DNA of 64,000 bases from Sphyrna mokarran (lineage: Eukaryota). The position numbers and the translations under genes were made by a program. A model generated the notes under the pieces. It had not been told where the DNA came from and searched no databases. It saw only the letters and a program-made list of their open reading frames with translations. Shown piece by piece: positions 5,985 through 59,834 of the stretch (the first letter of the stretch is position 1; each line of letters begins with the position of its first letter). The stretch is from positions 36,642,001 to 36,706,000 of the forward strand of contig JAGIQG010000003.1 of the NCBI GenBank assembly GCA_024679065.1, in the 5' to 3' direction.

Positions 5985-6230
5985 AGTTAGTTTATTCAGT
6001 GACAAGTAAGGTTTATGTTAACACTGCAGTAAAATTCAATTAGTCACCACAGTCGAGCGCCTGTTTGAGTCAATGCACATAACCACTGTCTTTCAGAATG
6101 TGGGAGGAAACCCAAGCAGACACAGGGAGAACGTGCAAACTTCATACAGAAGTGACTCAAGCCAGGAATCGAACCTGAGACCTTGGTAGTGTGATGCAGC
6201 AATACTAATCACTGTGCTACCATGCCGCCT
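5985..6230 (-). mobile_element. HE1/V-SINE-type tRNA-derived SINE (tail type B)
   Basis: Reverse complement has a tRNA-like head (A box, GGTTCGATTCC B box), V-domain TTTGCACGTTCTCCC...TTTCCTCCCACA and an AATAAA-ending tail. Confidence 0.85.
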
Positions 6231-6231
6231 A

Positions 6232-7840
6232 AAGGCTGACAAACCCCGAGGACCTGATGGATTTCGTCCTAGGCCCTTTAAAAGGAATGGCTGCTAAAAT
6301 AAAAGATGCATCCATTGTAATTTTCCTAAATTCTGGAAAGTCCCATCTGATTGGAAAATAGCAAATGTAACACCTCTATGCGAGAAAGGAAGGAAGCAGA
6401 AATGAGAAAATTGTAAACCAGTTAGCCTAACATTCGCAGAGGGAAAATGTTAGAATCTATTGTTAAGGAGGTTATAACAGGGCATTTGGAAAATCTTAAT
6501 GCAATCAGGCAGGGTCAACATGGTTTTGTGAAAGGGAAATCACATTTGACTCATTTACTGGAGTTCTTCTGAGAGAGTAACAAGTGATGTGGATAAGGGA
6601 GAATTTGTAGATATGATGCATTTAGTTTTCCAAAAGAGGTTTGATAAGATGCCATATCAAAGACTATTATATAAAATAAGAGATCATGGTGTAGGGGGTT
6701 AACACATTAGCATGTGTAGAGAATTGCCTGGCAAACGGAAAACAGAGTAGGGATAAATGTAACTCTGCCAACTGTGTGTGGTGCCTAAATGATTTATAAT
6801 CTATATCAATCATTTTGATGAAGGGACCAATTTGCTAATGACACAAAAATAGGTAGGAAAGTAAATTGTGATGAGGACATTAAGCATCTGCAGAGGGATT
6901 TAGATAGGTTAATTGAGTGAGTAAAAATCTAGCAGATGATGTATAATATGGGAAAATGCACACTTTGAAAGGAAGGATAGAAAAGCAGTATATTACTTGA
7001 ATGAAGAGAGATTGCAACATAGAGGGATCAAGGTGTCATGAACACAAAATTAGCATCCAGGTAAACCAAGTGATTAGGAAGGCCAAATTGAATGCCTATT
7101 GTAAGGGAAATGGAACCTATAAAACTCAAACTTTTACTGCAGCTATATAGGCCCTTAGCCAGACTACATCTGGAGTACTGTGTATAATTTTGATTTTTTT
7201 TTAGTTGAAAAAAGATATAATTGCATTAGAAGGAATTCAGAGATGGTTCGCTCAACCCTTTAACTCTTTTTTGAGTTAAAAGCTGTAACTTTTGTGACAG
7301 GTTGGAACAGATTGGGCCTATACCCAAATTAGTTTAAAAAATTGAGAGGCAATCATATTAATACATACAAAATTCTGAGGGAATGTGACAGTGGTAAAGA
7401 TTAGAAATAGGAGACATGGTTTAAGAATATACTCTCCCTTTTTACGACTGAAGTGAGGAAATTTTTTTTCTCTCATTGGCTGGAACTTTACTGTCTTGCC
7501 CGCCATGGGAATTGGAGTGAGCAAGGGGTGTACCACGGAAAGGTCTGTTAACCTCAGGTGGGATTCTACAGTTTTGGGATGAGCAAGGCCATGAAATCCC
7601 ACTTGTATCTCTGAAATTCTCTTTCTCAGAGAATAGTAGAAGCTGAGGTCATTGAATTTATTCAAGGCAGGGTCGGATTGAATTTTGAAAGATAAGGGAG
7701 TCAAGGGTAATGGGAGTGGTGGGAGGGGATGGGAGCGGACAGGAAGGTGGACCACAAGCGGATCAACCACGATCTCATTGAAAGGCTGAGCAGACTTAGA
7801 GTCGAATGGCCTATACCTATACCTAAGTTCTGTGCTCCTT
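6232..7840 (+). mobile_element. Degenerate CR1 LINE ORF2 (RT) plus 3' tail, interrupted by a MITE
   Basis: Remnant peptides KADK-PGPDG, DWKIANVTPL, QHGFVKGKS-LT-LLEFF, RPHLEYC-like; CR1 tail at about 7750-7840; many stops. Confidence 0.9.
7478..7602 (-). mobile_element. Short MITE (Harbinger-like family) nested in CR1
   Basis: Imperfect TIRs GGCTGGAACTTTAC / ATGAAATCCCAC; internal sequence matches 56108-56237 in reverse orientation. Confidence 0.65.
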
Positions 7841-7874
7841 TTGAAAGGGAGAATCGGGTCTGGGGTCCAAAAAA

Positions 7875-8952
7875 AATGTGTGGGTTAGGTTGATTGGCCA
7901 AAGTGTCAGAGATGAGCAGGTTAATACTGCGCCCAGTTCTGGTCTCCGTACTATCGGAAGGATGTGGAGTCCTTGGAGAGAGTGCAGAGGAGGTTTACCA
8001 GGATGCTGCCTGGTATGGAAGGACTGTCTTATGAGGAACGAATAGATAGACTGGGGTTGTTTTCCCTTGAAAGACGTCGGCTTAGAGGGTATCTCATAGA
8101 GGTGTATAAGATTATAAGGGGTATAGATAGAGTAAATGGAGGTAAACTTTTTCCACCTTTAGAAATGGATAGGACGAGAGGTCATGGCCATAGGGTGAAG
8201 GGGGCTATGTATAGGACGAATATTAGAGGGCAGTTTTTCACACAAAGGGTAGTGGGGGTGTGGAATGCACTGCCGAGTAAGGTGGTGGGAGCAGGCACGC
8301 TGGGGCTGTTTAAGGGTCTCTTGGACAGCCACATGAGCGGTATGCAGATAGAGGGATATATTAGGACTGTTTAACTACGGCTTTTTTCCACAGGTAATTC
8401 GGTCCATAATTTGAGCACGCATTCGGCAGGTGGTGCGGGTACAGCTCTTGGATGTTGATTCATGGGTTGCCTGGTACCTCATGTCGTATATGAGTGCTTT
8501 ATGTGGACCACCTGAAGGGCACCATGACAGCTCAGAGACTATCGATGTGGCTGTGCAGACACTTGGAATTGGGCCGGTGTCTGCGGGAGTTTGCGCGTTC
8601 TCCCCGTGGTTGCGTGGGTTTTCTCCGGGCACTCCGGTTTCCTCCCACAACCCAAAAATTCGCTCTTAGGCTGATTGGGTAACAAATTGTCCCTATGGTG
8701 AAAATTTTCCAAATTAGGATTAATATATATATTATTATATAGGAATATTAAAATAGGGTAATGTATTTGGTATTACGGTGGCGCGGGCTCGTTGGGCCGA
8801 AGGGCCTGTTTCCCGTGCTGTGTTGCTTAATTAATTAATTAATTAAATGTGTGCAGTTATGGGAATAGGGCTTGGATGGGATTACAGCCGGTACAGACTC
8901 GATGAACCAAATGACCTCCTTCTGCCCTGTAGGGATTCTATAATTCTATGAT
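7875..8952 (+). mobile_element. HE1-type SINE 3' portion (7875-7924 and 8847-8952) split by a CR1 insertion
   Basis: GGTTAGGTTGATTGGCCA...GCAGGTTAA upstream and ATGTGTG...GGGATTCTATAATTCTATG downstream are consecutive parts of the SINE seen in other copies such as 58407-58602. Confidence 0.7.
7925..8846 (+). mobile_element. Young 5'-truncated CR1 LINE with long V-domain-containing 3'UTR and (TAAT)n tail
   Basis: Open ORF2 C-terminus YCAQFWSPYYRKDVESLERVQRRFTRM...GQFFTQRVVGVWNALP, stop at 8374; CpGs retained; CR1 terminal motif GGGCCGAAGGGCCTGTTTCCCGTGCTGT, then TTAA repeats. Confidence 0.9.
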
Positions 8953-11686: not shown

Positions 11687-12178
11687 AGAAGCTAGAAGCA
11701 GGAGTAGGCCATTCAGCCAGTTGAGCGTGCTCTGCCATTCATTTTGATCATGGCTGATCATATATTCGTAGAAGCCCTACGGTGCAGATGGAAGCCATTC
11801 GGCCCAACAAGTTTGTATTGATTACAATTCCATCCAGGCCCTATCCCTAAACCCTATGCATTTACTCTAGTTAGTTCCCGTGATATTAAGGGATAATTTA
11901 ACCAATCCTAACCTGCACATCTTTGGACTTTGGGAGGAAACTGGATCTAATCATCAAATTCAATATCTTGATTTCCCTGCCCCACTATATCCTTTGGTCC
12001 CTCTAGCTCCTGGAGCTGTATCTAATTTTGTCTTGAAATTGGACAACACTTTGGCCTCAACTATATTCTGTGACAGTAAATTCCACACACTCGCCACCCT
12101 CTGGGAAAAGAAACTCCTCCTCACCTTAGTTCTAAAAGATTCATCCCTATGAATCAGACTATGACCCCTTGTCCTGGA
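11687..12178 (-). mobile_element. CR1 3' fragment with nested HE1-type SINE piece (about 11768-11945)
   Basis: Reverse CR1 tail AGCAGGAGTAGGCCATTCAGCC...TGATCATGGCTGATCA, interrupted by a reverse SINE (CACATCTTTGGACTTTGGGAGGAAAC), then CR1 resumes. Confidence 0.75.
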
Positions 12179-13665: not shown

Positions 13666-15101
13666 AAATACAGAAAATATCATCAAGATTTCACTTTTTG
13701 TAACTTCTGTTTCAGCACAATTCAGTACGAATGCAAATCAACCATGGATAAAGGCAAATGATACTTGTAATAAAAAGGTAACCTTCACTTCAAATAGTCA
13801 ATACAGGAAAGATGCATCTTCTACAACCGCAAGCCCATGGCACAAAACGTTTTCTAATTTAGTCTTTTAGTACACAGGATCTCTAGCTTAGTTAATTTCA
13901 TCCACAAGTCACCCTCACTGGCAGCCATATTCCATCCAAATCCAAGTTCTTTTGAAACACTCGTCACCTGAATGTTACAGGATCCAACAGTATCTCCTTG
14001 TTAAGTTCACAACAGTTTTAATCGCAAAGGCTTTCTGAATGCTCCTTTATCCATCCCTTTACAAACCCTGTCATATAGTCTGTTCGGATTTGGCAAAACT
14101 GAAGCAGCTGCAGTAAAATCATTCAATTCACAATCTCTGATTAGTCCTATCTTCAGATTTTTGTCCTATTTAATTGTATCACACACATATACAAAGCTCT
14201 TTGTAATTGTGACTTGTCTGTTCATCCCTCTGTCTTAACTTTCCTTTGTCTACAGCTTGTCTTTGTGTCTGCCAGCTACATTGCTTTCCTCTTGGTACTG
14301 CTTCCAGGTCACGTGGATCAGTATTTCTTATTGTTCAAGAAAATCATAATTGATCCCATTACAAATGATGTGATTTCTTAAAAGTCTTTCAAAAATATTC
14401 TTCAAACTACTTTGATTTCTGATATTTTAAATAAATCACATTTTATTCTCCTTATGTACTGCTTCGCAGGTCATCACAGTAGTGTCTTCAGTCAGAAAGG
14501 TATCCCAATTGTGCCTGTAACAGCATAAACTGCAACAAGCCCTGAACTAATTAGATGCCTCCTCTCCAAACCCACATACATCAGCAAGGTCATCGTGATG
14601 GGATTTCAACATCAATGTCACTAACACTAACCTAGCTAGTTTCAACTAAACCACTAAAAGTACTGTTGACACTTATGATCTTCCTGGTCGAGCATGCCTC
14701 AGTGTCACAACAACTGTTGTATTTAAGTACTAAATGTTCAGAAACTCTGTGACTTTATCAAGCATTCCCTGCCCGACAAGGCAAATTAATGTATTTTTAA
14801 TGAGAAGCAGCATTGCAGAAGGAGCAAAGTTCAAGATTTTCCATCTAATTAAATGAATAGACCTCAGAGGCATTTCTGTTTGGCAATGTACATACTGGGG
14901 CAGAGAATTGGCCCTAACAATAAATATTGGCATCATTTTGAGAGTTATCTTGAATCTAGCAGTATGTCCAAAATTAAATGCATGGTTGACATTATAATTA
15001 GATTCCAAAGGGTCAGAAGAGTCTCTACTGAACAATCTGTCATTGTAATCAAAATAAAGTATGGGAGAGGATTGTCATGTTAACTCAAGAATTAAGTTTT
15101 A

Positions 15102-15380
15102 GATAGCACAAGTGGTTAGCATTGCTGCTTCACAGCACCAGGGACCTGAGTTCGATTCCTGGCTTGGGTCACAGTCTGTGTGAAGTTTGCATGTTCTCCC
15201 CGTGTTTGTTTGTGTGGGTTTCCTCTGAGTGCTCCAGTTTCCTCCCACGTTCTGAAAATGTGCTGGTTAGGCGCATTGACGCGAACAGACGCCAGACTGT
15301 GGCAACTAAGGGAATTTCACAGTGACTTCATTGCAGTGTTAATGTAAGCCTTACTTGTCACTAATAAATAAACTTTTTTT
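15102..15380 (+). mobile_element. HE1/V-SINE-type SINE (tail type B)
   Basis: AGTGGTTAGCATTGCTGC head, GAGTTCGATTCC B box, V-domain, tail ...CTTGTCACTAATAAATAAAC. Confidence 0.85.
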
Positions 15381-16284
15381 TTTAGTCTCAGTCGTCTACT
15401 TAGTTTCTGATCATGGAGCCTAAAAAGGAGCACTAAATAAGCATTGTTAGTACAAAGCATGGAGTTAATCATCAAACCAAATCCATTTGTGCAAGTAATT
15501 TCACAGAAAATCATTTCTGTTCAACCTAAATTATAGATGAACTTTGAATTTTCCCAGAGGTGATGGAGTAGTGCTAGGAACAGTCATGTCTAATCCATTA
15601 TCGGCTCCCTATCACCTTTCTCATCACCTGTGCCCCGTGCCTGCAAAATAGGTGAACCGTGTGGGGAAAGAAAGCTCGGGGTGAATATGCGTGGCCCATA
15701 TTTTTCAGATAGTAATGACAGCAAAGCTGCAACTTCAAGTGTCCACTGAGTGGTTAAACATAGAACTCCAATAAATGCTGTTAGTGAATCTACATTTCTC
15801 CATAGGGTGCTCTGTTGAAATCAATTAGAAATGGCAGTGCTGAAGAGAACTTGTCCTTCTACAAAAGCACTGTCAACATATATTCTGTAATATAGCTTTT
15901 AAAAAAATCTGTGCCGTCTTAATGCAGTATATTTGTTTTAAATTGTATATTAATTCGATTAGTAACTTCTCTGGTTCTCGGAAACTAATTCAGAATTAGT
16001 TTTATGTCATTTTTTTCCATTCTGCTAATTCTAAATTTTTTTTGAAAGTGTTTGGATTACATACATCCAAAGCTAAAAACAGTTGTTTTGCTCTCTGTAA
16101 AATGAATAAATAAGTGAAGATTAATCAGTGTGCTTTACTTTCTGATTTTCTAATGGTGAGAATCCTTCAATGTGATTTGCTGCTAACCTGGTTTGATAAC
16201 ACATGGCTGAATGCCTGAAGATCCCCTTGCTACCACATTCAAATCAACATCAGTGAATTGAAATCCATGCCATACAGATCACTA

Positions 16285-17461: not shown

Positions 17462-18412
17462 CTATGGACTTTAGTAAGGTGTTTGATAAGGTCCCCCATG
17501 CAAGGCTTCTGGAGAAGGTGAGAGGGCATGGGATCCAAAGGGCTTTAGCCTCGTGGATCCAGAACTGGCTTGCCGGCAGAAGGCAGAATGTTGTTGTGGA
17601 TGGTCTTGTTCTGCATGGAAGTCGGTAATCAGTGGAGTGCCCCAGGGATCTGTTCTGGGACCCCTGCTGTTTGTCATTTTCATAAATGACCTGGATGAGG
17701 AATTGGAGGGATGGGTTAGCAAGTTCGCCGACGATACAAAGGTATGTTGTGGATGGTCTGGAGGGATGCCAAAAGTTGCAGCGGGACATAGACAGGATGC
17801 AAGACTGGGCGGAGAAGTGGCAGATGGACTTCAACGCAGATAAATGTGTAGTGGTCCATTTTGACAGGAATAATGGGATGAAGGAGTACAATATAAGGGG
17901 TAGGAGTCTTAGCTGTATTGTAGAGCAGAAGGATCTCGGGGTCCGGGTCCATAGACACTTAAATTGGCCTCGCAGGTGGAGGAAGTGGTCAAGAAGGCGT
18001 ACGGTGTATTGGCCTTCATTAATCGACAAATAGAGTTTAGGAGTCAGGAGGTAATGATGCAGCTCTATAAGACTCTTGTCAGACCCCAGTTGGAGTATTG
18101 TGCGCAGTTCTGGTCGCCTTATTATAGGAAGGATGTAGAGGCTATTGAGAGGTTCAGAGGAGATTTACAAGGATGCTGCCTAGATTGGGAGGCAGGTCTT
18201 ATGAAGATAGGTTGAGGGAGCTGGGACTCTTCTTACTGAGAGACGTAGGTTGAGAGGCGACCTGATAGAGGTTTATAAAATGTTGAGAGGAATAGATAGG
18301 GTAGACTCTCGGAGACTATTTCCCCGAGCTGAAATGGTCACTACGAGAGGACACAGATTTAAGGTGCAGGGAAGCAAATACAAAGGAGATGTCAGGGGTA
18401 GGTTTTTCACTG
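17462..18412 (+). mobile_element. CR1 LINE ORF2 RT domain, frameshifted and truncated at both ends
   Basis: [63 protein letters not shown]. Confidence 0.95.
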
Positions 18413-20089
18413 AGGGTTTCCTCCAGACGCTCTAGTTTCCTCCCACAGTCCAAAGATGTAGAGGGTAGATGGATTATCCATCCCATCATGGGGGCAGGGG
18501 CACATGAGAAAATTTCACCTTTTTGTGTTTTACTGTCAACAGTAGACTGAACATATACTGGTGGCAAATATCTTCAGCAGTTAATTGCAATCATTCCAGT
18601 TTCTAGATGCCCATTTGTCAGAATGATAAATGTCTTGAATATAAAAATGGAACAGATAAGGGTATTAACGGCCGAACTATTAGGTTTGCTGTTGACGTGT
18701 TGAGGAAAAAAATGTGTAAGAAGGCTGAACTTGAAGGAGAAGTTCAGACATTGGACTAATGATTGATGACTACGTTTAACTTGTCTAACTCTGATCTGAA
18801 TACCTGGAAATTCGGTGACACTGTGCTTATTTTACACATACAAAACATGAATTCCCTGCTTCCTTCTCAATTGCTCAGTCACTCTCCCAGTAACTTTATC
18901 CCACAAAATAACTGCTTCCCCCTCCCCCCTCCCGACTTTTCCAACATCAAGCTGAGAAGTGTAACTGATGATAACAGTGGCCAACAATTCAAAATGTTTG
19001 TTAGTGTGCTGCTTGCAGACATCTGACAAGCTTCTCATGTGCCTGATCTCATTTTTAATGTATTGACAAGAAAATTAATTTCAATAGCAATCTATCTTGC
19101 TGAAGGTAGGTGTAAATGCATTTTGTAAAATCTCAGCAAGTCAGCTAAATATAAGACAAGCATCGCGTGAAGCTGTACAGTCTGAATTCTAGAGTCCAAG
19201 TCTAAAAATTTTGTGATGAATCAAATCGTTGTTTAAGTGAGACCATTTACCGAATATTACGTTCAGATTTAGCCTTAGAGGGATAGTGTTGCCTAAGAAG
19301 ATTTCCAGAAGGAAGTAACCAAATGGATTCCATAGTAGGATGAAGAAATCCCCCAAAACTTATTTTCTAGTAGCAAAATGAAAAGCATAATTAAAAAAAA
19401 AGTTTCTAAAATAAAAACAAAATAAGGTTATATACAAATTAGAGAAAAGTAGAGTATTTGTAATAAATTAGGGGTGTCTGGCAAATTTCTTTCAAAAGTA
19501 AAAAAATCATTATTTAAGCAAATATGTAGAAGAAACTTTTTATGTTTAATTTTTGGAACAAGCTGTAACCTCTTGCAGTGAGAAAACTTCTTATGGAAGA
19601 GAACTGAACAAATTTACGTTGCGGAAGGAAGATAATGGATCTAATAAGCCTAGATCTAGCGCAATGTCACCATAATGATATAAATGAGCTGACGTTTGGG
19701 TATATGGGGAATTGGAATATATCAATGACTAGAAATGGGAATAATAGCATTTCATTAGATTAAAAAAGCTTAATAGGTTGAGTCATATTTGATTTCACAT
19801 TATTAGATTCTAATAAATATTCATGAAATTAATATCCATTGTGAGTTTTAACAAATGAGGCTAAAATTTGTTGCTTATATTGCCTTTAAGAATGTAGTGA
19901 TGAATGATTTTCTTGAACTACTGAAGGCCTTGTCGTAATGATACACGCACAGTGCTGTTAGGAAAAAAAATGGTTCATGTGAGCCCACTGCTTTCTGACT
20001 TAGAGATTCCCAGTCCTGATTCTAGTTTCACTCTCCCCATCTCCAAATTCTTACCTTTAAAAATCTTGGCTTCTCCAATTCCAGTTTGT

Positions 20090-38009: not shown

Positions 38010-38300
38010 GCTACATCATTGCAGAGTAGTTTGCAGTCAATTCCTTGCCTGGGTAACTGTCCGTGCAGAGTCTGCGTATTCTCCCTGCATCTACTTGGAT
38101 TTCCTTCAGGCGCTCCAATTTCCTCCCACAGTCTGAAAGATGCGCTGATTAAGCACATTGGCCATGCTAAATTCTCCCTCAGTGTACCCAAACAGGCGCT
38201 GGAGTATGGTGACTAGAGGATTTTCACAGTAACTTAATTGTAGTGTTAATGTAAGCCTACTAGTGACACCAGGAAATAAACTTCAACTTAAACTTAACAT
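38010..38300 (+). mobile_element. HE1/V-SINE-type SINE (tail B)
   Basis: V-domain, GGCCATGCTAAATTCTCCCTCAGTGTACCC, tail TTTTCACAGTAAC...GTAAGCCTACTAGTGACA. Confidence 0.8.
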
Positions 38301-41260
38301 AGTATTTTTTATGAGCTGAACTTTTCTGAACAATGTCTTCCATTGCAATACTGCCCTGCAGCTTCTGTAGTGTGAAGAAAAGTGACAAAAATGGTACATG
38401 TTCTCACAGATTGGAAGCTCGTTCTCCGAAGATGCCAGAGAAGAATGTTTACTTTGCATTCATGTCTTCTTTGGATGAAAAGTATGCATGTATACAACAG
38501 CGACTAATTAACTTGGCATTTCTCATGATGCCAATTGGTATTTCTCATGATGCCATTTCCCAAGCCTCCTTGAGGAAGACAAACCTAACACTATATTCAC
38601 TTGCCTCAGCTGCTTCCATCTATGTAGCTTGCACATCAGATTTAACATTTTGCCAGCTGATTGTTATTCTTGTTTTACTGCAACTTTTGTCACAACACAT
38701 TCAAGTTATTATTGTTTTCTGAGAAAGGCTTAGACATATTCCTCATTGCATATATTTCAGCAAGTTTATGCTTTTACACCTCATTTAAATGCTAGGTTGA
38801 AATTTGGCAAAGGACTTTTAGTTATAATCAGCATTCCTTTAAAAGTTAGTGGCTCAGCTCATCTTTATAAATGCCTACAAAACAAAATGTATCCTTATGT
38901 TCCTGTATGGGGAACATAAAAAATGGGAACAGCATTTTTGTGTAAACTTCAATAAGGACCACCTCGTATATAACTATACCATTGTCATTGATGCAACCCT
39001 GATTTTATAATTCTTGCTAAATCTGAATCCTGATTTCTTATAGTTTAGTGATTCTGGAGTAGACGGTATGTTTCTTATGGTGAAAGCAAAGCAATCCAAT
39101 TCACAATGACCATGGGATGCATACAATGAAAGGTGAATATGGTGGATTCTAACATGCTGAAATCATCAGTAATTGGGGGTAACTCGCTCAAAGTGACATT
39201 TAATGGAATTGCTGCTTCATAATTAGCAATAATGCAGCTTCTACTACACTCTCAGGGAGCTGCTGCTGGATGACTTTGGTGTAAATAGGGGTCCAATGAA
39301 GTAAATAAAACTCCAATTGCCATTTTGGAGAGGAATTGCTTGGAATATGCTGTAAACTCTGACCGCTGATGATGAAGCCGAAGGATCTCTGCCTGAGGTA
39401 AGTTTTTAAGTCATTTTTGTTTAGACCCGGCAAGGCACTACAGAAATAATCTTTGCTGCTCCAGATCCCAGAGCAGTGGTGGGCTATCTGGGTCCAGATG
39501 TTACATGCAGCTCCTCTGGTTCTGAGTGCGGCCCATAAGACATTTTATTGACTTTTGCCCATGCGCAAGGTTATCACATTTCACTAATATTTGTCTGTAT
39601 CGTTTTTTTTTTGCTATCAGTATGACTGAAGCGATATGCATGTAAAACAAGGGCAAGTGTAATGAGATGCATGCTGATTACACACATTAACTATGAGAAC
39701 AGGGCACTCCCTCTGTGTCCATAGTGTAAATATTTATTTTTGATTTTGCCATTTTGAAGTTGATAGTTAAGTGTGCATTTTCTTATAACTCCTTAAGAAT
39801 ATTCACAGTGAGTTAAATGTATTTAATTTTATTTAAGTGGTTATGCGGTCCACTGAGATGAAGGAGGGCCACTCGGGTGGCCCACTCATTAGCCTAAGTT
39901 GCTCATCACTGCTCTGGAAACATAACTGGGGTTATTGCTTTCCCAGCATTTCTCATTTCCAAAAACTGTAAACATCGGACATACCTTCCTGTGACCGTGC
40001 CCTTTGGATCACCTAGCTTGCATGAAGTGATCTGAATTGGGATATAGTTTTAATGGTTCTGCTTTCTTGGACTCCAAATAACTGGGAGGCGCCATTGATC
40101 AGCTGACCTGAAGGACCTGACCTCAATGAGAAAGGAAGTAAATTTACTTCCTATCTTTCAAAATGGAAGAAAGTTATCCCCTCTTTCCCCCCTTCTATTC
40201 CTCCCCCATCCATCCCTCTTTTCTGGCTCCAACATCAACCCCTCTTTCTCCCCCAGAATAATTTACCTGGAACAATTCCAAACAGTGGAAGGAAGCACAA
40301 AAGAAGCAAATGAAAGTAATAATAAGAAACATAACTTGAACAGTGCCAATAATTAGCAAGAGTTTTTATCATTTTAGCCTAGAACTTTGTGTCCAGAGGA
40401 TCATACTCTGGAGGTGCCCCAAGCTGTGTGTTGAGGGATCCTTTTGGAGGTTCCCATAACTACACAGGAATTGCCCAGGAAGTTTCAACTGCATCAGGGA
40501 CCTATCAAAGCTCAACTTAAGTCAATACAGATGAGTTCAGGTGTGACAAATGCCAAGACTTGCAGGGAAACAATATTGGGGCCAACATTAATGTGTACGG
40601 ATTCAGATACATTCAACTGTCTCTCCTGAATCAGTCAGTTATTGAAATTAGCTCCTTAGAATTTAGGATCAAATGTATCAGATACTCCTTTAATTAGAAG
40701 AGAATATTGACTGGTTTCACATGATACAACCCAGAGGGAAACAACACCTATATGTGCAAATACATGAATCCATAATAATTTCTAATGAATCATTTCATAA
40801 ATTATTCACAACTGTCTTGAATTTAATATTAAATAGCATTGTCTGGTTCTTTAATTAGCAAATAAATTATGCAAAATACTGCAGTTGCTGAAAATCTGAA
40901 ATCAAAAGCAGAAAATTCTGGAAGTAAGCAGTAGGTCTAGAGAGAAACAGATTTAAAAGGCCAGATTTACGCTGCAGAGGATGTTAGCTTGAGTCAGGAC
41001 ATTGTTGGCATTGCTCTGCATCACAAACCAGCTGTCCAGTCAACTGAGCCAACCAAGGGTTTGTTTGAACTCAACACTAATTCAAATGGATGTGCTAAGT
41101 TTGGACTCTTGCCCATGTGATTCATTCCCTGCTTCTTTTCCCCCACCAGTCTGGATGGGGATGGAACTTCCACACCTTGCTCCTGTTGCCATTATTGAAG
41201 GTTCTCGCTGAGGCTTACTTTATACAGAGGCCTGCTGTTATTGAGCTGTCTGCTCTGACT

Positions 41261-41938
41261 ATGGGGAAGAAGCGTGTGACCATCATCCTCTCCGGCTGTG
41301 GGGTCTACAATGGCAGTGAGCTACACGAGTCCTCGGCAGCGATGGTTCATCTGAGCCGAGCTGGCGCGGAGGTACAACTCTATGCCCCCAATGTGAACCA
41401 GATGCATGTTGTAAACCATATGACCGGCCAACCAACCGAGGAGGTGCGCATTGTGCTGGTGGAGAACAGCCGGATCGCCAGGGGTAACGTCAAGGACCTG
41501 GGCGAGCTCAGTATTAATGACACCGACGCGCTGATCATTCCAGGTGGTTTTGGAGTTGCTAAGAATCTGAGCAACTGGGCAGTGAAAGGAAAGGACTTCA
41601 CGGTGGAGGCATCAGTCGAATCCACCATAAAGAAATTTCATGCTACAAAGAAACCCATTGGCCTGTGCTGCATCTCTCCAGTGTTGGCGGCTAAACCCAT
41701 TCCTGGGTGTGAATTAACTGTGGGCTATGATACAGAATGTGAAAAGTAGCCCTATGCAAAAACAGACCAAGCCATGGCAGATTTAGGTTGCAAACATGTC
41801 AACAAGCACATGAATGAAACACATATTGATAAGCAAAATAAATTGGTGACGACCAGTGCCTTCATGTGCAATGCTCCCATCCATGAGGTTTTTGATGGAA
41901 TTGGGGAAATGGTGAAAGAGGTCTTGAAGATGGCATAA
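41261..41938 (+). pseudogene. GATD3: Processed pseudogene of a GATD3/ES1-like (glutamine amidotransferase-like class 1, DJ-1/PfpI superfamily) gene
   Basis: Intronless 225-codon frame [33 protein letters not shown]...RIARG...[16 protein letters not shown]...[16 protein letters not shown]...ECEK*PYAKT...NKLVTTSAFMCNAPIHEVFDGIGEMVKEVLKMA*. In-frame TAG at 41747-41749 at the conserved Trp of KWPYA; 3'UTR, ATTAAA and A13 follow. Confidence 0.93.
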
Positions 41939-42071
41939 ATCTTTCAATTGATGGAATAAATTGAAGAGATTCAAAAATTCTATTTACTAGAATATGTATT
42001 TGTCAGTACATTGTGTTTTGAAGGAATATTTAAATCCTTGTATCAGTGTTGTGAAAGCTCTAATTTAACAG

Positions 42072-42101
42072 ATTAAAGGAATGTTCTGAAAAAAAAAAAA
42101 A
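42072..42101 (+). other. Polyadenylation signal and retro-copied poly(A) tail
   Basis: ATTAAA at 42072-42077; run of 13 A at 42089-42101. Confidence 0.85.
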
Positions 42102-42545
42102 TTGGTCCACCTTGTTGTCTAACGAGGGGCATACATGCGATGGGTCATGAGAGGACTGCATTTGGATCTTTTTCGTGAGTATCCTACTGCTTCACGTCGT
42201 TAGTGTGTACTTGACCTGGACCATCTGATGGGCAACACAACAGCTCAGTGACTATCGCTGTGCTGTGCAGATACATGGATTTGGGCCTGTGTCTGTGGGA
42301 GTTTGCGCATTCTCCCCGTGCTTGCGTGGTTTTCTCCGGGTGCTCCGGTTTCCTCCCACATCCCAAAGATGTGCTCTTAGGCTAATTGGCAAAACAAATT
42401 CTCCCTAAATTGTCTCAAATTTGGTTTTTAATCCATAGATCTATAAATACGGACAAGGATCGCGGGTAGAGGTGGGGACATCGGGGTGGCGGCGCGGGCT
42501 CGTTGGGCCGAAGGGCCTGTTTCCCGTGCTGTTTTGTTCTTTGTC
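42102..42545 (+). mobile_element. CR1 LINE 3'UTR (V-domain-containing family) fused to the pseudogene poly(A)
   Basis: Collinear homology to 8399-8825, including TGGACCA-CTGA-GGGCA, ACAGCTCAG-GACTATCG, the V-domain and an identical GCGCGGGCTCGTTGGGCCGAAGGGCCTGTTTCCCGTGCTGT terminus. Confidence 0.9.
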
Positions 42546-43629
42546 TCTAGTGATGATCCAACTATTATGTGAAAATCTGGCTTCTGTTCTAGTGCTATTA
42601 CTTTGTTAGAACTTTTGATGAAAGCTCACAGACATAAAATAATGCTTTGATTGTTGGTATAATCATTGATTTTGCAGTCATTACTTTGCCCTTGTTTTTC
42701 TGACAGTCACACATCCTTCCCTCTACCATAGACATTCATGCTGAAATACCTACTTCTCATGCTCAATGAGTTTGGGCACTTTAGCATCATCACCTGCAGC
42801 TTTACTATCAAATGATGTTGATAGCTTTGCTAAATTTTGGTAACTAGCTGTGCCATGACAGGCAAACTCTGGTGTCTAGAGCTTTCTCAATGACCAGATG
42901 CTCCCTAGAGAATCTTCCTTGTACTGCTCCATCCTTGTCCTCAACTGTTTATTGTAATTGGCGCTGAACTCCTCTGCCTTTAATTTCAGTGGGAACTGCT
43001 TTCTTTGTTGCTGCCTTTTTGATCACATCATCCATGCCCTTTAGACTTCCTTGTGTCGGGGGGTGTTTGGATATTCTGGTAAAGCTGTAACTAGTATAAC
43101 GAGATAGCCAAGGTGCAGTGCGTGACAGTCTATTAGACTTTAATTCAAGAAGCTCTTGAAGCATTCAAAGCTTTTTTTCATCCAGGCCTCCCTTCGCAAT
43201 TAGAGAGCGGATTGCTTGGCTTCAAAGACGGGTTCTATTACCATGATGTTAGCCTCAAACAAGTCAGCGGTTTCTGCTCCAGCTTCCCTCACTTTGATTG
43301 AACAGGTGCTCACCAACATTCCCAGGCAAGAACTGAGGAAAATAGAATATATTTCACAACACCATTTACGAGACTGCACCATTTTAATTTTCTTCAAGAG
43401 CAGAAACTCCAGATTTATGAGTAATGAATCTATTAGAATCGTAGAAACTACAGTGCAGAAGTAGGGCATTCAGCCCATTAAGTCTGCACCGACTCTCCGG
43501 AGCATCTCTCACAGACCCTGTCCCATAACCTGTTAATTCACACTCCCACTAACATGTTAAGTGAAACTGCAGAGCTGACTTTCCCACCAAGGAAAAAATT
43601 ATGGAAAAGTACAATTTTGTCTTGCTTAT

Positions 43630-54470: not shown

Positions 54471-54814
54471 TCAATAGTAAATTTAATGCCAATATATATT
54501 ATTCCGAAGAATATTAAGTAACTCAGATGGATGTCCAGACTCCCAAAATCAGAAGTGATGATGCGATCAGTACTGTATTTCTGGGTCCAGTAAAGGTTAT
54601 GGTATCAGTATATCTCACTGTAATTTGATGTCGAGAGTACATCAGGGGTTTCTGACTCGTTAATCCTGTTGGAAATCCCTGTCACATTGCCATCAATGGC
54701 AAAGTTAACCTTCCTATTTCCATTAGCCTACTGCATAAGGTAGCTGATCACTCTTCCCCAATGTCCATCTGAATCCTTCTGGAACAAAGAGCTCAGCACA
54801 TCAGTGGTCTTTTA

Positions 54815-55103
54815 GGCAGCATGGTGATACAGTAGTTAGCACTGCTGCCTCACAGTGCCAAAGACCTGGGTTCAATTCCAGCCCTGTGGGTCACTGTGTG
54901 CAGAGTTTACACTTTCTCCCCATGTCTTTGTGGTTTCCTCCCACACACTGAAAGGTGTGCTGGTTAGGTGCATTGGCCATGCTAAATTTTCCCTCTGTGT
55001 ACCTGAACAGGTGCTGGAGTATGGCGACCAGAGGATTTTCAGAGTAACTTCATTGTAGTATTAATGTAAGCCTACTTGTGACACTAATAAACAAACTTAC
55101 TTA
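54815..55103 (+). mobile_element. HE1/V-SINE-type SINE (tail B)
   Basis: tRNA-like head with GGGTTCAATTCC; tail GTAAGCCTACTTGTGACACTAATAAACAAAC. Confidence 0.85.
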
Positions 55104-55478
55104 TGCTCAACAGTGCCCTCATTCTATACAGGCAATCTATTAAGATGCAGGATTAGTGGGATTTTCAGGTTATGCTAGGGATCAGTAGATCTGGGTTAAG
55201 GCTTTTTATGAACTGGAATGGAATTCGGTCCTATATTTCTAAATCAACATGGAAAGTTACACATAATCAGTTAATCCTTTGATAGGAACAGTAAACTATT
55301 GTGGAACAAAGGTAGATTGCACATAAATCAGAAAAATCTGATAAATAGAAGCATCCACTAAATGCTTCCATTTCAATTTATAGTTGGGTTGAATTGAAAC
55401 TGTCCTTAAAATGATCCAGATTTGTGCTCTCCTCATACCCAGCACATTCTTCCTTCAGAATCCATGGAAAATGCATAC

Positions 55479-58406: not shown

Positions 58407-58602
58407 TGTCCAAAGATGTGTGGGTTAGTTTGATTGGCCATGTTAAAATTGCCTTTTAGTGGCCTGAGATATGCAGGTTAGAGGGATTAGCGGGTAAATG
58501 TGTAGGGATATGGGGAAGGCGCCTGGGTGGGATTGTGATCATTGCAGACTCGATAGGCCAGATGGCCTCTTCGTGCACTGTAGGGTTTCTATGAATTCTA
58601 TG
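58407..58602 (+). mobile_element. 5'-truncated HE1-type SINE nested in Gypsy (tail A)
   Basis: TCCAAAGATGTGTGGGTTAG...GCACTGTAGGGTTTCTATGAATTCTATG. Confidence 0.85.
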
Positions 58603-59834
58603 AATCTGTCGACAAACGTATTGGTCCTTTACAATCCACTGAGACCGCTTATCATAACCTGTGATGTCTCCCCACTGAGGTTAGCATTTATTTTGTGGGG
58701 AACCTGGGTGCTTGTCTCACATCCAGGTCAACAACAAATACTCCATGAATTGCATAACGGCCACTCAGGGATTTCTAAAATGTACGCAAGAAGCTACGTC
58801 TGGTGGCCTGGTATGGACAAGGCCATTGAAAAACTGATTAGGCAGTGTAAAACCTGCCAGGAAAATCAAAAGGTCTCACCAACAGCCTCATTGCAACCCT
58901 TGGAAATGACCAGGGAGACCCTGAGTGTGAGTGCACACAGTCTTTATGGGCTCTATACTCTTAATTCCAATTGATGCTCACTCACAATGGATCAACGTGC
59001 ATCAAATGGTCTCTACTACTTCTTACAGCATCAATAGAAAGACTCTGACAATCTTTATGTACACCTGGTATACCTGAGCTCCTTGTGGGGACAACAGAAT
59101 CCCATTTACCAGCAGGAAGTTTCAAACCTTCGTGAACACAAATGGAATAACGTACATCCACATAACTCCCTATCAGCTATTTTCAAATGGCTAAGTGAGT
59201 AGTCTAGGTATTTAAAAACAATTTGAAGAAACAAAAAAACAGACTCTTTAGAAACAAAACTTGCACTTCTCTTTTTCATTTGTAGCACAACATCACATGT
59301 GATGGGACTAACTCCAGCAGAGCTATTGATGGGTCAACACTTTTGACCTGGTCTCTCTCTCTCCTGAATCTGGTTGGCAAAATTGAAGAGAAACAAAAAG
59401 CCTGAAAAAAAGAGGCCACAATGGATATCAACCTGACAGGACCTTCAAATCAGAAGTTACCATTCACGTTTAGAATTTCAGAGATGATTCCCCGTGTATC
59501 TGAGGAGCTATCCTTTCAAAAACTGGATCAGTGTCATATACGGTAAAGACTGGGGAGGAGGCTATTTAAAAAAATGCCGATTATCTCCTCTATTGTGAAC
59601 CATCCACAGGGGTTGGCTGCATCTCATAACACTTTTCTGCAGATGAAAAACTCTACCCACAGCCAAGAGAGGTCTACGAGTACTCCACCTCAGAAATGGA
59701 GACGGAGGCAGTGGAATTGCAGTCAGCAATCATCATAGAGGACAGGCTCCCTACAGTACCCTTTGACATTCCAGAAGGAAGAGACATTCACTCACTCTGT
59801 GTGCACTTCCTGACCAAACCATGCAAACAAGAGG

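What the first reader, a model, noticed from the sequence alone, without database searches (positions are those of the whole stretch)
8375..8846. A CR1 LINE family whose 3'UTR contains the V-SINE core domain
Seen: directly after an open CR1 ORF2 stop (8374) comes a 3'UTR containing GTGTCTGCGGGAGTTTGCGCGTTCTCCCCGTG...TTTCCTCCCACA (about 8577-8690). This is the central domain of the HE1-type SINEs scattered through the window, but with no tRNA head. A diverged second copy (42102-42545) has the same order of unique segment, V-domain and CR1 terminus, so this is a family architecture rather than a one-off nesting. Established: the V-domain is the conserved core of vertebrate V-SINEs and its origin and function are unclear. 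Inference: either the V-domain derives from a CR1 3'UTR, or a CR1 lineage captured it and kept it as a functional RNA element.
Basis: partly seen in the sequence, partly recalled or inferred. Interest (0 to 1): 0.7.

Follow-up and report, generated by a model that had tools for sequence, protein, structure and literature searches.

The report
CR1 tail holding a captured V-SINE
A jumping gene of a shark-like fish appears to have swallowed one of its own short parasites whole and now carries it as its tail end, which could show what the parasite's long-conserved core sequence is for.

Summary
The sequence is as described, but 'no tRNA head' is wrong. Directly upstream of the V-domain both copies carry a decayed HE1-type tRNA head. 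Position 8517 is the best ungapped match to the local SINE head among 126,225 background positions; the B box is deleted. SINE similarity also continues past the V-domain. So a nearly whole V-SINE sits in this CR1 3'UTR, and the direction is SINE to LINE: the V-domain does not come from CR1.

ORF2 ends at its natural stop, there is one CR1-type tail, and ORF2 plus UTR interrupt an older HE1 whose halves rejoin, so they moved as one unit. The two copies are CpG-rich, share V-region states absent from local SINEs, and differ 9% in V against 31-42% in flanking segments, which suggests constraint. The 'unique' segment folds as a strong hairpin.

Weak point: only one copy shows ORF2 joined to the UTR. 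The second is fused to a retrocopy's poly(A) and starts near the stop, so a non-autonomous element is not excluded. No genome or read data were obtained. Closest precedent: MER6. Ten literature searches found no LINE with a V-domain; Repbase and Dfam were not checked.

The parts
7860..7924 (+). left part of an older HE1-type SINE that the CR1 copy interrupts
   Evidence: aligns to the middle of the local SINE majority and stops where the right part resumes; junction letters
7925..8374 (+). 3' end of CR1 ORF2 (5'-truncated copy), open, natural stop
   Evidence: P0045 is 88% identical and ends at the same residue
8375..8390 (+). short linker after the stop
   Evidence: read directly; no counterpart in the second copy
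8391..8514 (+). 'unique' segment: one long predicted hairpin, origin unknown, not SINE-like, no Rfam family
   Evidence: z -4.7, 0/300 shuffles; z -5.1, 0/200; 0 of 60 random windows reached z -3; no similarity to the SINE majority, 262/500; Rfam only E>=2.6
8517..8577 (+). decayed tRNA-derived head of a V-SINE: A-box half recognisable, 18 nt shorter than the local SINE head, B box missing; predicted to refold into two small hairpins
   Evidence: 27/51 ungapped identity, rank 1 of 126,225; robustness; best B-box match has 3 mismatches; folds
8577..8696 (+). V-domain and the HE1-type body that follows it
   Evidence: post-V part aligns to the SINE majority, 0/500 shuffles
8697..8776 (+). AT-rich spacer, poorly conserved
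   Evidence: 43/71 identical to the second copy, 24/500 shuffles; no significant match to the SINE majority, 69/500
8777..8825 (+). CR1-type 3' stem-loop tail, the only one in the insertion
   Evidence: 47/49 identical to the second copy; stem-loop fold; its translation matches 10/10 residues of a read-through CR1 tail in P0028; 33/46 to the local SINE tail
8827..8846 (+). (TTAA)5 terminal repeat; a possible 4-bp target duplication cannot be told from it
8847..8950 (+). right part of the interrupted HE1-type SINE, with its own SINE tail
41261..42101 (+). processed pseudogene of a DJ-1/PfpI-family gene (ES1/GATD3-like, name recalled): one in-frame stop at 41747-41749, ATTAAA at 42072, poly(A) 42089-42101
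   Evidence: (Pfam PF01965, E 2.8e-5, below the curated cut-off)
42102..42545 (+). second copy of the UTR unit (hairpin segment, decayed head, V-domain, body, CR1 tail), joined directly to the poly(A); no ORF2

Best explanation
An elasmobranch-type CR1 subfamily acquired a nearly whole HE1-like V-SINE in its 3'UTR, once and long ago. Either the SINE inserted upstream of the LINE's tail and the two homologous tails were reduced to one, or reverse transcriptase switched template. The passenger lost its Pol III B box, by an 18-nt deletion that fits two short repeats flanking the box, and so cannot be copied as a SINE. It is now copied as part of the LINE mRNA, whose 3' stem-loop is what ORF2p recognises. 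At least two sub-lineages descend from that event. The 8 kb copy is a 5'-truncated insertion of one into an old HE1; the 42 kb copy is a shorter one of the other, finished by a template switch onto a cellular mRNA's poly(A). The V-domain, head remnant and tail diverged far less between the lineages than the hairpin segment and spacer, which suggests the captured RNA is now under constraint in cis (RNA folding, stability or RNP assembly). Shown: anatomy, head remnant, natural stop, single tail, rejoining host, conservation contrast. Inferred: family-wide linkage to ORF2, the route of capture, the template switch, any function.
For: Head remnant in SINE register in both copies, 61 nt from V instead of 79. 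SINE similarity continues past V (0/500 in both copies). ORF2 ends at the same residue as an 88% relative. ORF2 and UTR sit between two halves of one older SINE with a single tail; a one-off nesting seen at about 11945-11690 (minus strand) leaves two tails. The outer 5-bp stem of the hairpin (8391-8395 with 8510-8514) uses bases upstream of where the 42 kb copy starts, so that start may be a truncation. Neither copy has an intact B box or any small-RNA head. The two copies share 12 states absent from the majority of 9 local SINEs over 114 columns (2 at the ragged alignment end), and are 87% identical to each other against 61-78% to the SINEs. CpG observed/expected is 0.85 and 0.75, against 0.11-0.51 in five SINE copies and 0.22 in the window, so the divergence is probably lineage evolution rather than decay. 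Identity by module: V 72/79, head 51/60, tail 47/49, against 47/68 and 35/60 (hairpin segment) and 43/71 (spacer); V versus the better half of the hairpin segment p=0.0013.
Against: Only 1 of 2 copies shows the ORF2-UTR junction, and no third copy was found anywhere. The 42 kb copy begins only about 23 nt downstream of where the stop would lie, which suits an element with its own 5' end, and it shows that this RNA does get fused to other RNAs. LINE/V-SINE junctions arise by chance in this genome: two unrelated ones lie in the same 64 kb (near 11945 and 18411). The tree joins the two copies with only 67% bootstrap. Module borders and the head block were chosen after looking at the alignment. 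The conservation contrast rests on two sequences and could partly reflect gene conversion from abundant SINEs (the 42 kb copy has only 2 private differences from the SINE majority, the 8 kb copy 8). The long hairpin is not the best fold of the 42 kb copy (z -1.5 to -1.7; forced fold -30.6 against -40.4 kcal/mol), RNAalifold chose another structure, and the pair-shuffle control was not significant (67/500).
Confidence: 0.65

Rival explanations
1. The unit 8398-8846 is a non-autonomous, promoter-less or Pol II-read retroelement (hairpin, decayed head, V, CR1 tail) with its own 5' end at the hairpin base. It is mobilised by CR1 and was joined to a CR1 RNA here and to an mRNA at 42 kb by two separate template switches.
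For: Homology between the copies starts at almost the same place, about 23 nt after the stop; the 42 kb copy is such a chimera; only one ORF2 junction is seen.
Against: The 42 kb switch landed on the acceptor's 3' end (poly(A)), whereas at 8 kb the CR1's own tail is absent, so the switch would have had to land inside a short UTR. The hairpin's outer stem extends upstream of the shared start. No promoter-bearing head was found.
Confidence: 0.2
2. The LINE carries the captured SINE as a family trait, but as a neutral passenger. The higher similarity in V comes from gene conversion or template exchange with the abundant HE1 SINEs, or from chance with two sequences.
For: Two sequences only; the 42 kb copy is close to the SINE majority in V; V is proposed as a recombination hot spot (PMC5804259, passages).
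Against: The head remnant is 85% identical between the copies but only 27/51 to the SINE head, which conversion from SINEs cannot produce; 12 shared non-SINE states. This rival shares the capture history with the best explanation and differs only on function; its confidence is not additive with it.
Confidence: 0.3
3. Sequential one-off nesting at 8 kb: a CR1 inserted, a separate V-SINE family with a long 5' extension inserted behind its stop, and a deletion removed the CR1's own tail.
For: Two other chance LINE/SINE junctions lie in the window.
Against: It needs three events in a CpG-rich, young-looking insertion; the host SINE rejoins cleanly behind a single tail; there is no intact Pol III head.
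Confidence: 0.08
4. The V-domain originated in a CR1 3'UTR, and V-SINEs took it from there.
For: Kojima 2018 shows that SINE bodies can derive from LINE UTRs, for the RTE and Vingi clades (PMC5786205).
Against: A tRNA-head remnant precedes V in SINE register. Three other CR1 3' ends in the window have short UTRs without V, and a fourth has only a nested SINE fragment. 0 of 82 fetched loci with CR1 relatives (39-59% identity; not all reach the UTR) hit the V profile. V-SINEs occur in cnidarians, molluscs and insects.
Confidence: 0.02

Closest known systems
MER6/MER6A (Tc1/mariner MITE carrying an Ac1-like V-SINE; PMC6887750, parts 1-3 of 5 read)
   Same: A V-SINE captured by another mobile element, unable to move on its own after loss of its head, and spread as a passenger.
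   Different: The carrier is a non-autonomous DNA transposon with no RNA stage. Here it appears to be a protein-coding retrotransposon, so V rides on the RNA that reverse transcriptase binds; the head is decayed rather than absent.
HE1 V-SINE and its partner LINE HER1 of sharks and rays (listed in PMC3747384, passages; the original papers were not readable; the label HE1 for the local SINEs is recalled)
   Same: tRNA head, V-domain, body and CR1-type stem-loop tail in the same order and near the same lengths.
   Different: B box deleted, A box degenerate, about 140 nt of extra hairpin sequence and an ORF2 upstream; the tail is of LINE type, 33/46 to the local SINE tail.
Ingi-3_AC and RTE-1_DAn (PMC5786205, parts 1-4 of 5 read)
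   Same: [quoted passage not shown]
   Different: Short pieces, other clades, 5'UTR in the first case; not a near-complete SINE with a V-domain in front of the tail.
Canonical vertebrate CR1 (PMC13343379, passages)
   Same: APE-RT ORF2 relatives, 5' truncation, stem-loop plus microsatellite end.
   Different: 3'UTR of about 470 nt, against about 70-100 nt in the other CR1 ends examined here.

Membership tests
CR1 LINE | ORF2 with APE and RT domains, CR1-clade sequence | tested here: met
   Only the last 149 aa are present, with no Pfam hit of their own; 66-68% identical to full-length APE+RT proteins P0002, P0003, P0007. Clade name rests on the look of relatives and tail; no RT tree was possible.
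CR1 LINE | 3' stem-loop followed by a short microsatellite | tested here: met
   8777-8825 stem-loop, z -1.5 to -2.2 (8 kb) and -1.9 to -3.0 (42 kb); (TTAA)5 at 8827-8846
CR1 LINE | multi-copy family with this 3'UTR joined to ORF2 | tested here: inconclusive
   1 of 2 window copies shows the junction; no genome was held; outside searches found no further copy
CR1 LINE | ORF1, full-length structure, activity | not testable with these tools
   copy is 5'-truncated at 7925
V-SINE (HE1 type) | V-domain, about 80 bp | tested here: met
   61-78% identical to 9 local SINE copies; compared only with the window's own SINEs, not with a published V consensus
V-SINE (HE1 type) | tRNA-derived head with intact A and B boxes at the element's 5' end | tested here: not met
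   remnant present but B box deleted (best match 3 mismatches) and about 120-140 nt of other sequence upstream; ARAGORN found nothing but also misses the true SINE heads
V-SINE (HE1 type) | LINE-derived tail | tested here: met
SINE with another small-RNA head (5S, 7SL, U snRNA) | head similar to a known small RNA | tested here: not met
   Rfam on 8360-8600 and 42090-42310: 4 matches, all E>=2.6 and far below gathering scores
chimeric retrocopy (mRNA 5' part, retroelement 3' part) | intronless frame, poly(A), direct join to the element, one target duplication around both | tested here: inconclusive
   frame, ATTAAA, poly(A) and direct join seen; no duplication of 7 bp or more found between 40901-41265 and 42531-42580; that the parent gene has introns is recalled

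The most novel reading that the evidence does not exclude
A protein-coding CR1 lineage has kept a captured V-SINE for a long time because the V-domain and the refolded head work in cis on the LINE RNA. This would be the first SINE highly conserved domain found under selection in a LINE, and would show that V has a role in retrotransposition itself, independent of Pol III transcription. The same structured 3' module also lets a sequence-stringent CR1 make processed pseudogenes by template switch.
Probability: 0.3. Interest if true: 0.7.

Novelty: new variant of a known kind. Interest (0 to 1): 0.48.

Why it matters
Why SINE core domains stay conserved for hundreds of millions of years is an open question. 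[quoted passage not shown] A CR1 family carrying V in its own 3'UTR would be a counterexample and a natural experiment. V is cut off from Pol III transcription, copied with its own reverse transcriptase, and can be deleted in a reporter assay. It does not explain where V came from. Practically, such a LINE would be split into LINE and SINE pieces by repeat annotation and would inflate SINE counts.

Tried and rejected
No whole genome was available, and no read-level test of the junction was obtained, so copy number and linkage stay open.

Run index: 17 of 20 listed runs hold part of 7925-8846. One run holds 0.91 of the words and may be the source; one holds 0.48 (same species label); three other organisms hold 0.23-0.32. 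None was laid, so which part they hold is unknown; the 12 rows under 0.2 are no evidence.

Searches that found nothing: exact patterns for the head region, 0 hits in metagenome and viral contigs; blastn in plasmids. None hit the V profile; the hairpin segment and tail gave only chance-level hits, E>=0.07. Searches for gene calls that run through the UTR gave nothing: 164 stored proteins (tail matches only), one word search, one phmmer search with 3 repeat-like hits. Earlier findings: none.

Free nhmmer and global alignment failed to show the head in the 8 kb copy; only the ungapped profile did. A hammerhead-like core near 8510 was considered by eye and dropped: the second conserved motif is missing and Rfam gave nothing. 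A 5S-derived head was considered from a short look-alike (recalled) and dropped. Conservation of the full long hairpin in the 42 kb copy: supported by one test (26 of 33 pairs kept, 20.1 +/- 2.3 expected, P=0.009), not by three others; only the outer stems are clearly shared.

Literature: ten searches gave no report of a V-domain in a LINE. Ogiwara 2002 is not held. The consensus table of PMC13343379 is readable only to 400 letters per cell, so the 3' ends, which could already hold this family, were not seen. Repbase and Dfam could not be searched.

Full report
Setting. The window is non-coding, repeat-rich DNA. Relatives of its CR1 proteins are named from Mustelus, Stegostoma, Chiloscyllium, Hypanus, Mobula and Leucoraja, so an elasmobranch source is inferred. 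No genome was held, so the analysis rests on the 64 kb, protein relatives, distant loci and papers. The label HE1 for the local SINEs is recalled; their head, V-domain and tail were defined from the window's own copies.

Observation. The frame 7925-8374 is open for 149 aa and matches the C-terminus of APE-RT proteins. P0045, 88% identical, ends at the same residue, and P0046, P0049 and P0059 end within a residue of it, so the stop is natural and marks a subfamily. The V-domain begins at 8577. The second copy at 42102-42545 is collinear. Identity by module, borders set by eye: first half of the unique segment 35/60, second half 47/68, next 60 nt 51/60, V 72/79, post-V 32/39, spacer 43/71, tail 47/49.

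The head is there. The 61 nt in front of V looked like the local SINE head. Free searches were weak: nhmmer found neither copy, and global alignment gave 396/2000 shuffles for the 8 kb copy and 3/2000 for the 42 kb copy. An ungapped profile of the first 51 head columns, from 9 local SINEs, was then scanned over both strands with 11 true heads masked. Position 8517 was the best of 126,225 positions (27/51 identical, many of the rest transitions) and 42230 ranked 15. The block was chosen after seeing the alignment, so I varied it: 4 scorings by 6 blocks. 8517 ranked 1-3 for the two longest blocks, 3-11 for three others, and 212-376 for the shortest. 42230 ranked 1 in all four scorings for the 30 columns before its one-base deletion, and 13-1068 for blocks that cross it. 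Ten random 5-of-9 profiles ranked 8517 first or second. The head-to-V distance is 61 nt against 79 in the SINE majority. The missing 18 nt are the stretch with the B box, which in the SINE lies between two copies of TGGG; a deletion between them is my inference. The best B-box match in either copy has 3 mismatches, and Rfam finds no small-RNA head. SINE similarity continues beyond V (0/500 shuffles in both copies) but not through the spacer (69/500 and 376/500). So the UTR holds head remnant, V and body of one V-SINE, and the transfer went from SINE to LINE.

One insertion. 7860-7924 and 8847-8950 are consecutive parts of one older SINE, and the CR1 piece sits between them with TTAA on both sides. 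Only one tail lies inside. Its translation matches a read-through CR1 tail 10/10 (P0028), while it is 33/46 to the SINE tail. The window shows what a one-off nesting looks like: near 11945 (minus strand) a truncated SINE sits in a CR1 UTR and both tails remain. Three more CR1 ends in the window (near 7800, 43650 minus, 53560) and loci L001 and L081 have UTRs of about 70-100 nt without V. None of 82 fetched loci with CR1 relatives (39-59% identity, not all reaching the UTR) hit the V profile. The long UTR is thus a derived state.

Two lineages. Over 114 columns with a clear SINE majority, the two copies share 12 non-SINE states (2 at the ragged end), with 8 and 2 private ones. They are 87% identical to each other and 61-78% to 9 SINEs; bootstrap for the pair is only 67%. 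CpG observed/expected is 0.85 and 0.75, against 0.11-0.51 in five SINE copies and 0.22 in the window, and their terminal repeats differ. They read as young insertions of two lineages that split long ago. V is then more conserved than the neighbouring segments (p=0.0013 against the second half of the unique segment, 1e-5 against the spacer) but not more than the dead head (p=0.29). That the head remnant is 85% conserved between copies while about 53% like the SINE head argues against simple conversion from SINEs and for a new constraint. It remains a two-sequence result.

Structure. 8391-8514 folds as one long hairpin: z -4.7 (0/300) and -5.1 (0/200); none of 60 random windows reached -3. In the 42 kb copy 26 of 33 mapped pairs still pair, against 20.1 expected from random substitution (P=0.009). 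But its own best fold keeps only the outer stems (z -1.5), RNAalifold chose another structure there and the pair-shuffle control was not significant (67/500). The head remnant folds into the same two small hairpins in both copies; the second pairs with the start of V and has one two-sided change and no broken pair (z -2.8 and -2.1).

The second copy and the main doubt. It has no ORF2. It starts directly after the poly(A) of an intronless DJ-1/PfpI-family retrocopy with one in-frame stop (the ES1/GATD3 name is recalled). CR1 proteins are thought to recognise their own RNA, which limits retrocopy formation (PMC5470649, passages), so a template switch from the element's RNA to the mRNA is the likely route; no shared target duplication was found. 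The copy starts about 23 nt downstream of where the stop would be. That may be chance truncation, since the hairpin's outer stem begins further upstream. It equally fits a non-autonomous element with that 5' end, fused once to a CR1 RNA. A second chance LINE/V junction at 18411 shows such joins are not rare. No third copy was found outside, and no read-level test was obtained. The run index lists three other organisms with 0.23-0.32 of the words. That is more than V and tail alone could supply by my count (about an eighth), so relatives exist in other species, but their structure is unknown.

Known cases. MER6 is a DNA transposon that captured a V-SINE minus its head (PMC6887750, parts 1-3 of 5). 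Kojima 2018 compared Repbase SINEs and LINEs, traced bodies only to RTE and Vingi 5' regions, noted Ingi-3_AC and RTE-1_DAn, and states that nothing like the conserved bodies had been found (PMC5786205, parts 1-4 of 5; supplement search 0 hits). Luchetti and Mantovani 2016 say no such domain has been found in LINEs and date V to early animals (PMC5804259, passages). Passages of PMC4824008, PMC3747384, PMC5499810, PMC7245038, PMC11481361 and PMC13343379 add background and no LINE with V. Ten searches found none either; the library lacks most subscription papers, Ogiwara 2002 was not held, the 3' ends of the 2026 CR1 consensi could not be seen, and Repbase and Dfam were not searchable. The family may already be deposited unremarked.

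Verdict. It works like a CR1 whose 3'UTR includes a captured, promoter-dead V-SINE (0.65). It is not a V-SINE by the head criterion, and it says nothing new on the origin of V. It is a new variant of a known kind (capture of a SINE by another element), of moderate interest because it could make the function of V testable.

Noticed in passing
window 41261-42545: Processed pseudogene (DJ-1/PfpI family, ES1/GATD3-like by recall) whose poly(A) is joined directly to a CR1-type 3' end: a candidate template-switch chimera, of interest because CR1 is thought not to mobilise mRNAs on its own.
   Followed up: partly
window 17464-18475: A decayed CR1 ORF2 breaks off at 18414 and runs straight into the 3' half of a V-domain with no tail after it; a different, probably one-off, LINE/SINE junction.
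   Followed up: no
window about 11945-11690, minus strand: 5'-truncated HE1-type SINE nested just after the stop of a CR1, with both the SINE tail and the LINE tail kept; shows how a capture could begin.
   Followed up: partly
window 15096-15390, 6231-5990 (minus), 54812-55105, 13663-13425 (minus), 38037-38290: A second V-SINE type shares head and V-domain with the HE1 type but has a different, non-CR1-looking tail; two of the five copies (6231, 54812) share a short deletion inside V. The partner LINE was not identified.
   Followed up: no
window 8369-8398: The linker after the stop reads like a 3' splice site (branch-like motif, pyrimidine run, CAG) followed at once by a GT donor-like motif; may be chance, but splicing here would give an RNA starting near where the 42 kb copy starts.
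   Followed up: no
window 6229-7830: An older, heavily decayed CR1 of another subfamily lies just upstream, with its own short UTR and tail ending near 7830.
   Followed up: partly
P0001, P0002, P0005; locus L081 369-880: Vertebrate-type CR1 sequences filed under bacterial names (Klebsiella, Carnobacterium, Proteus, Fredinandcohnia); they look like host contamination in bacterial assemblies.
   Followed up: no
window 58498-58974, minus strand: Open frame that resembles the integrase zinc-binding region of a Gypsy-type LTR retrotransposon (by eye and recall).
   Followed up: no
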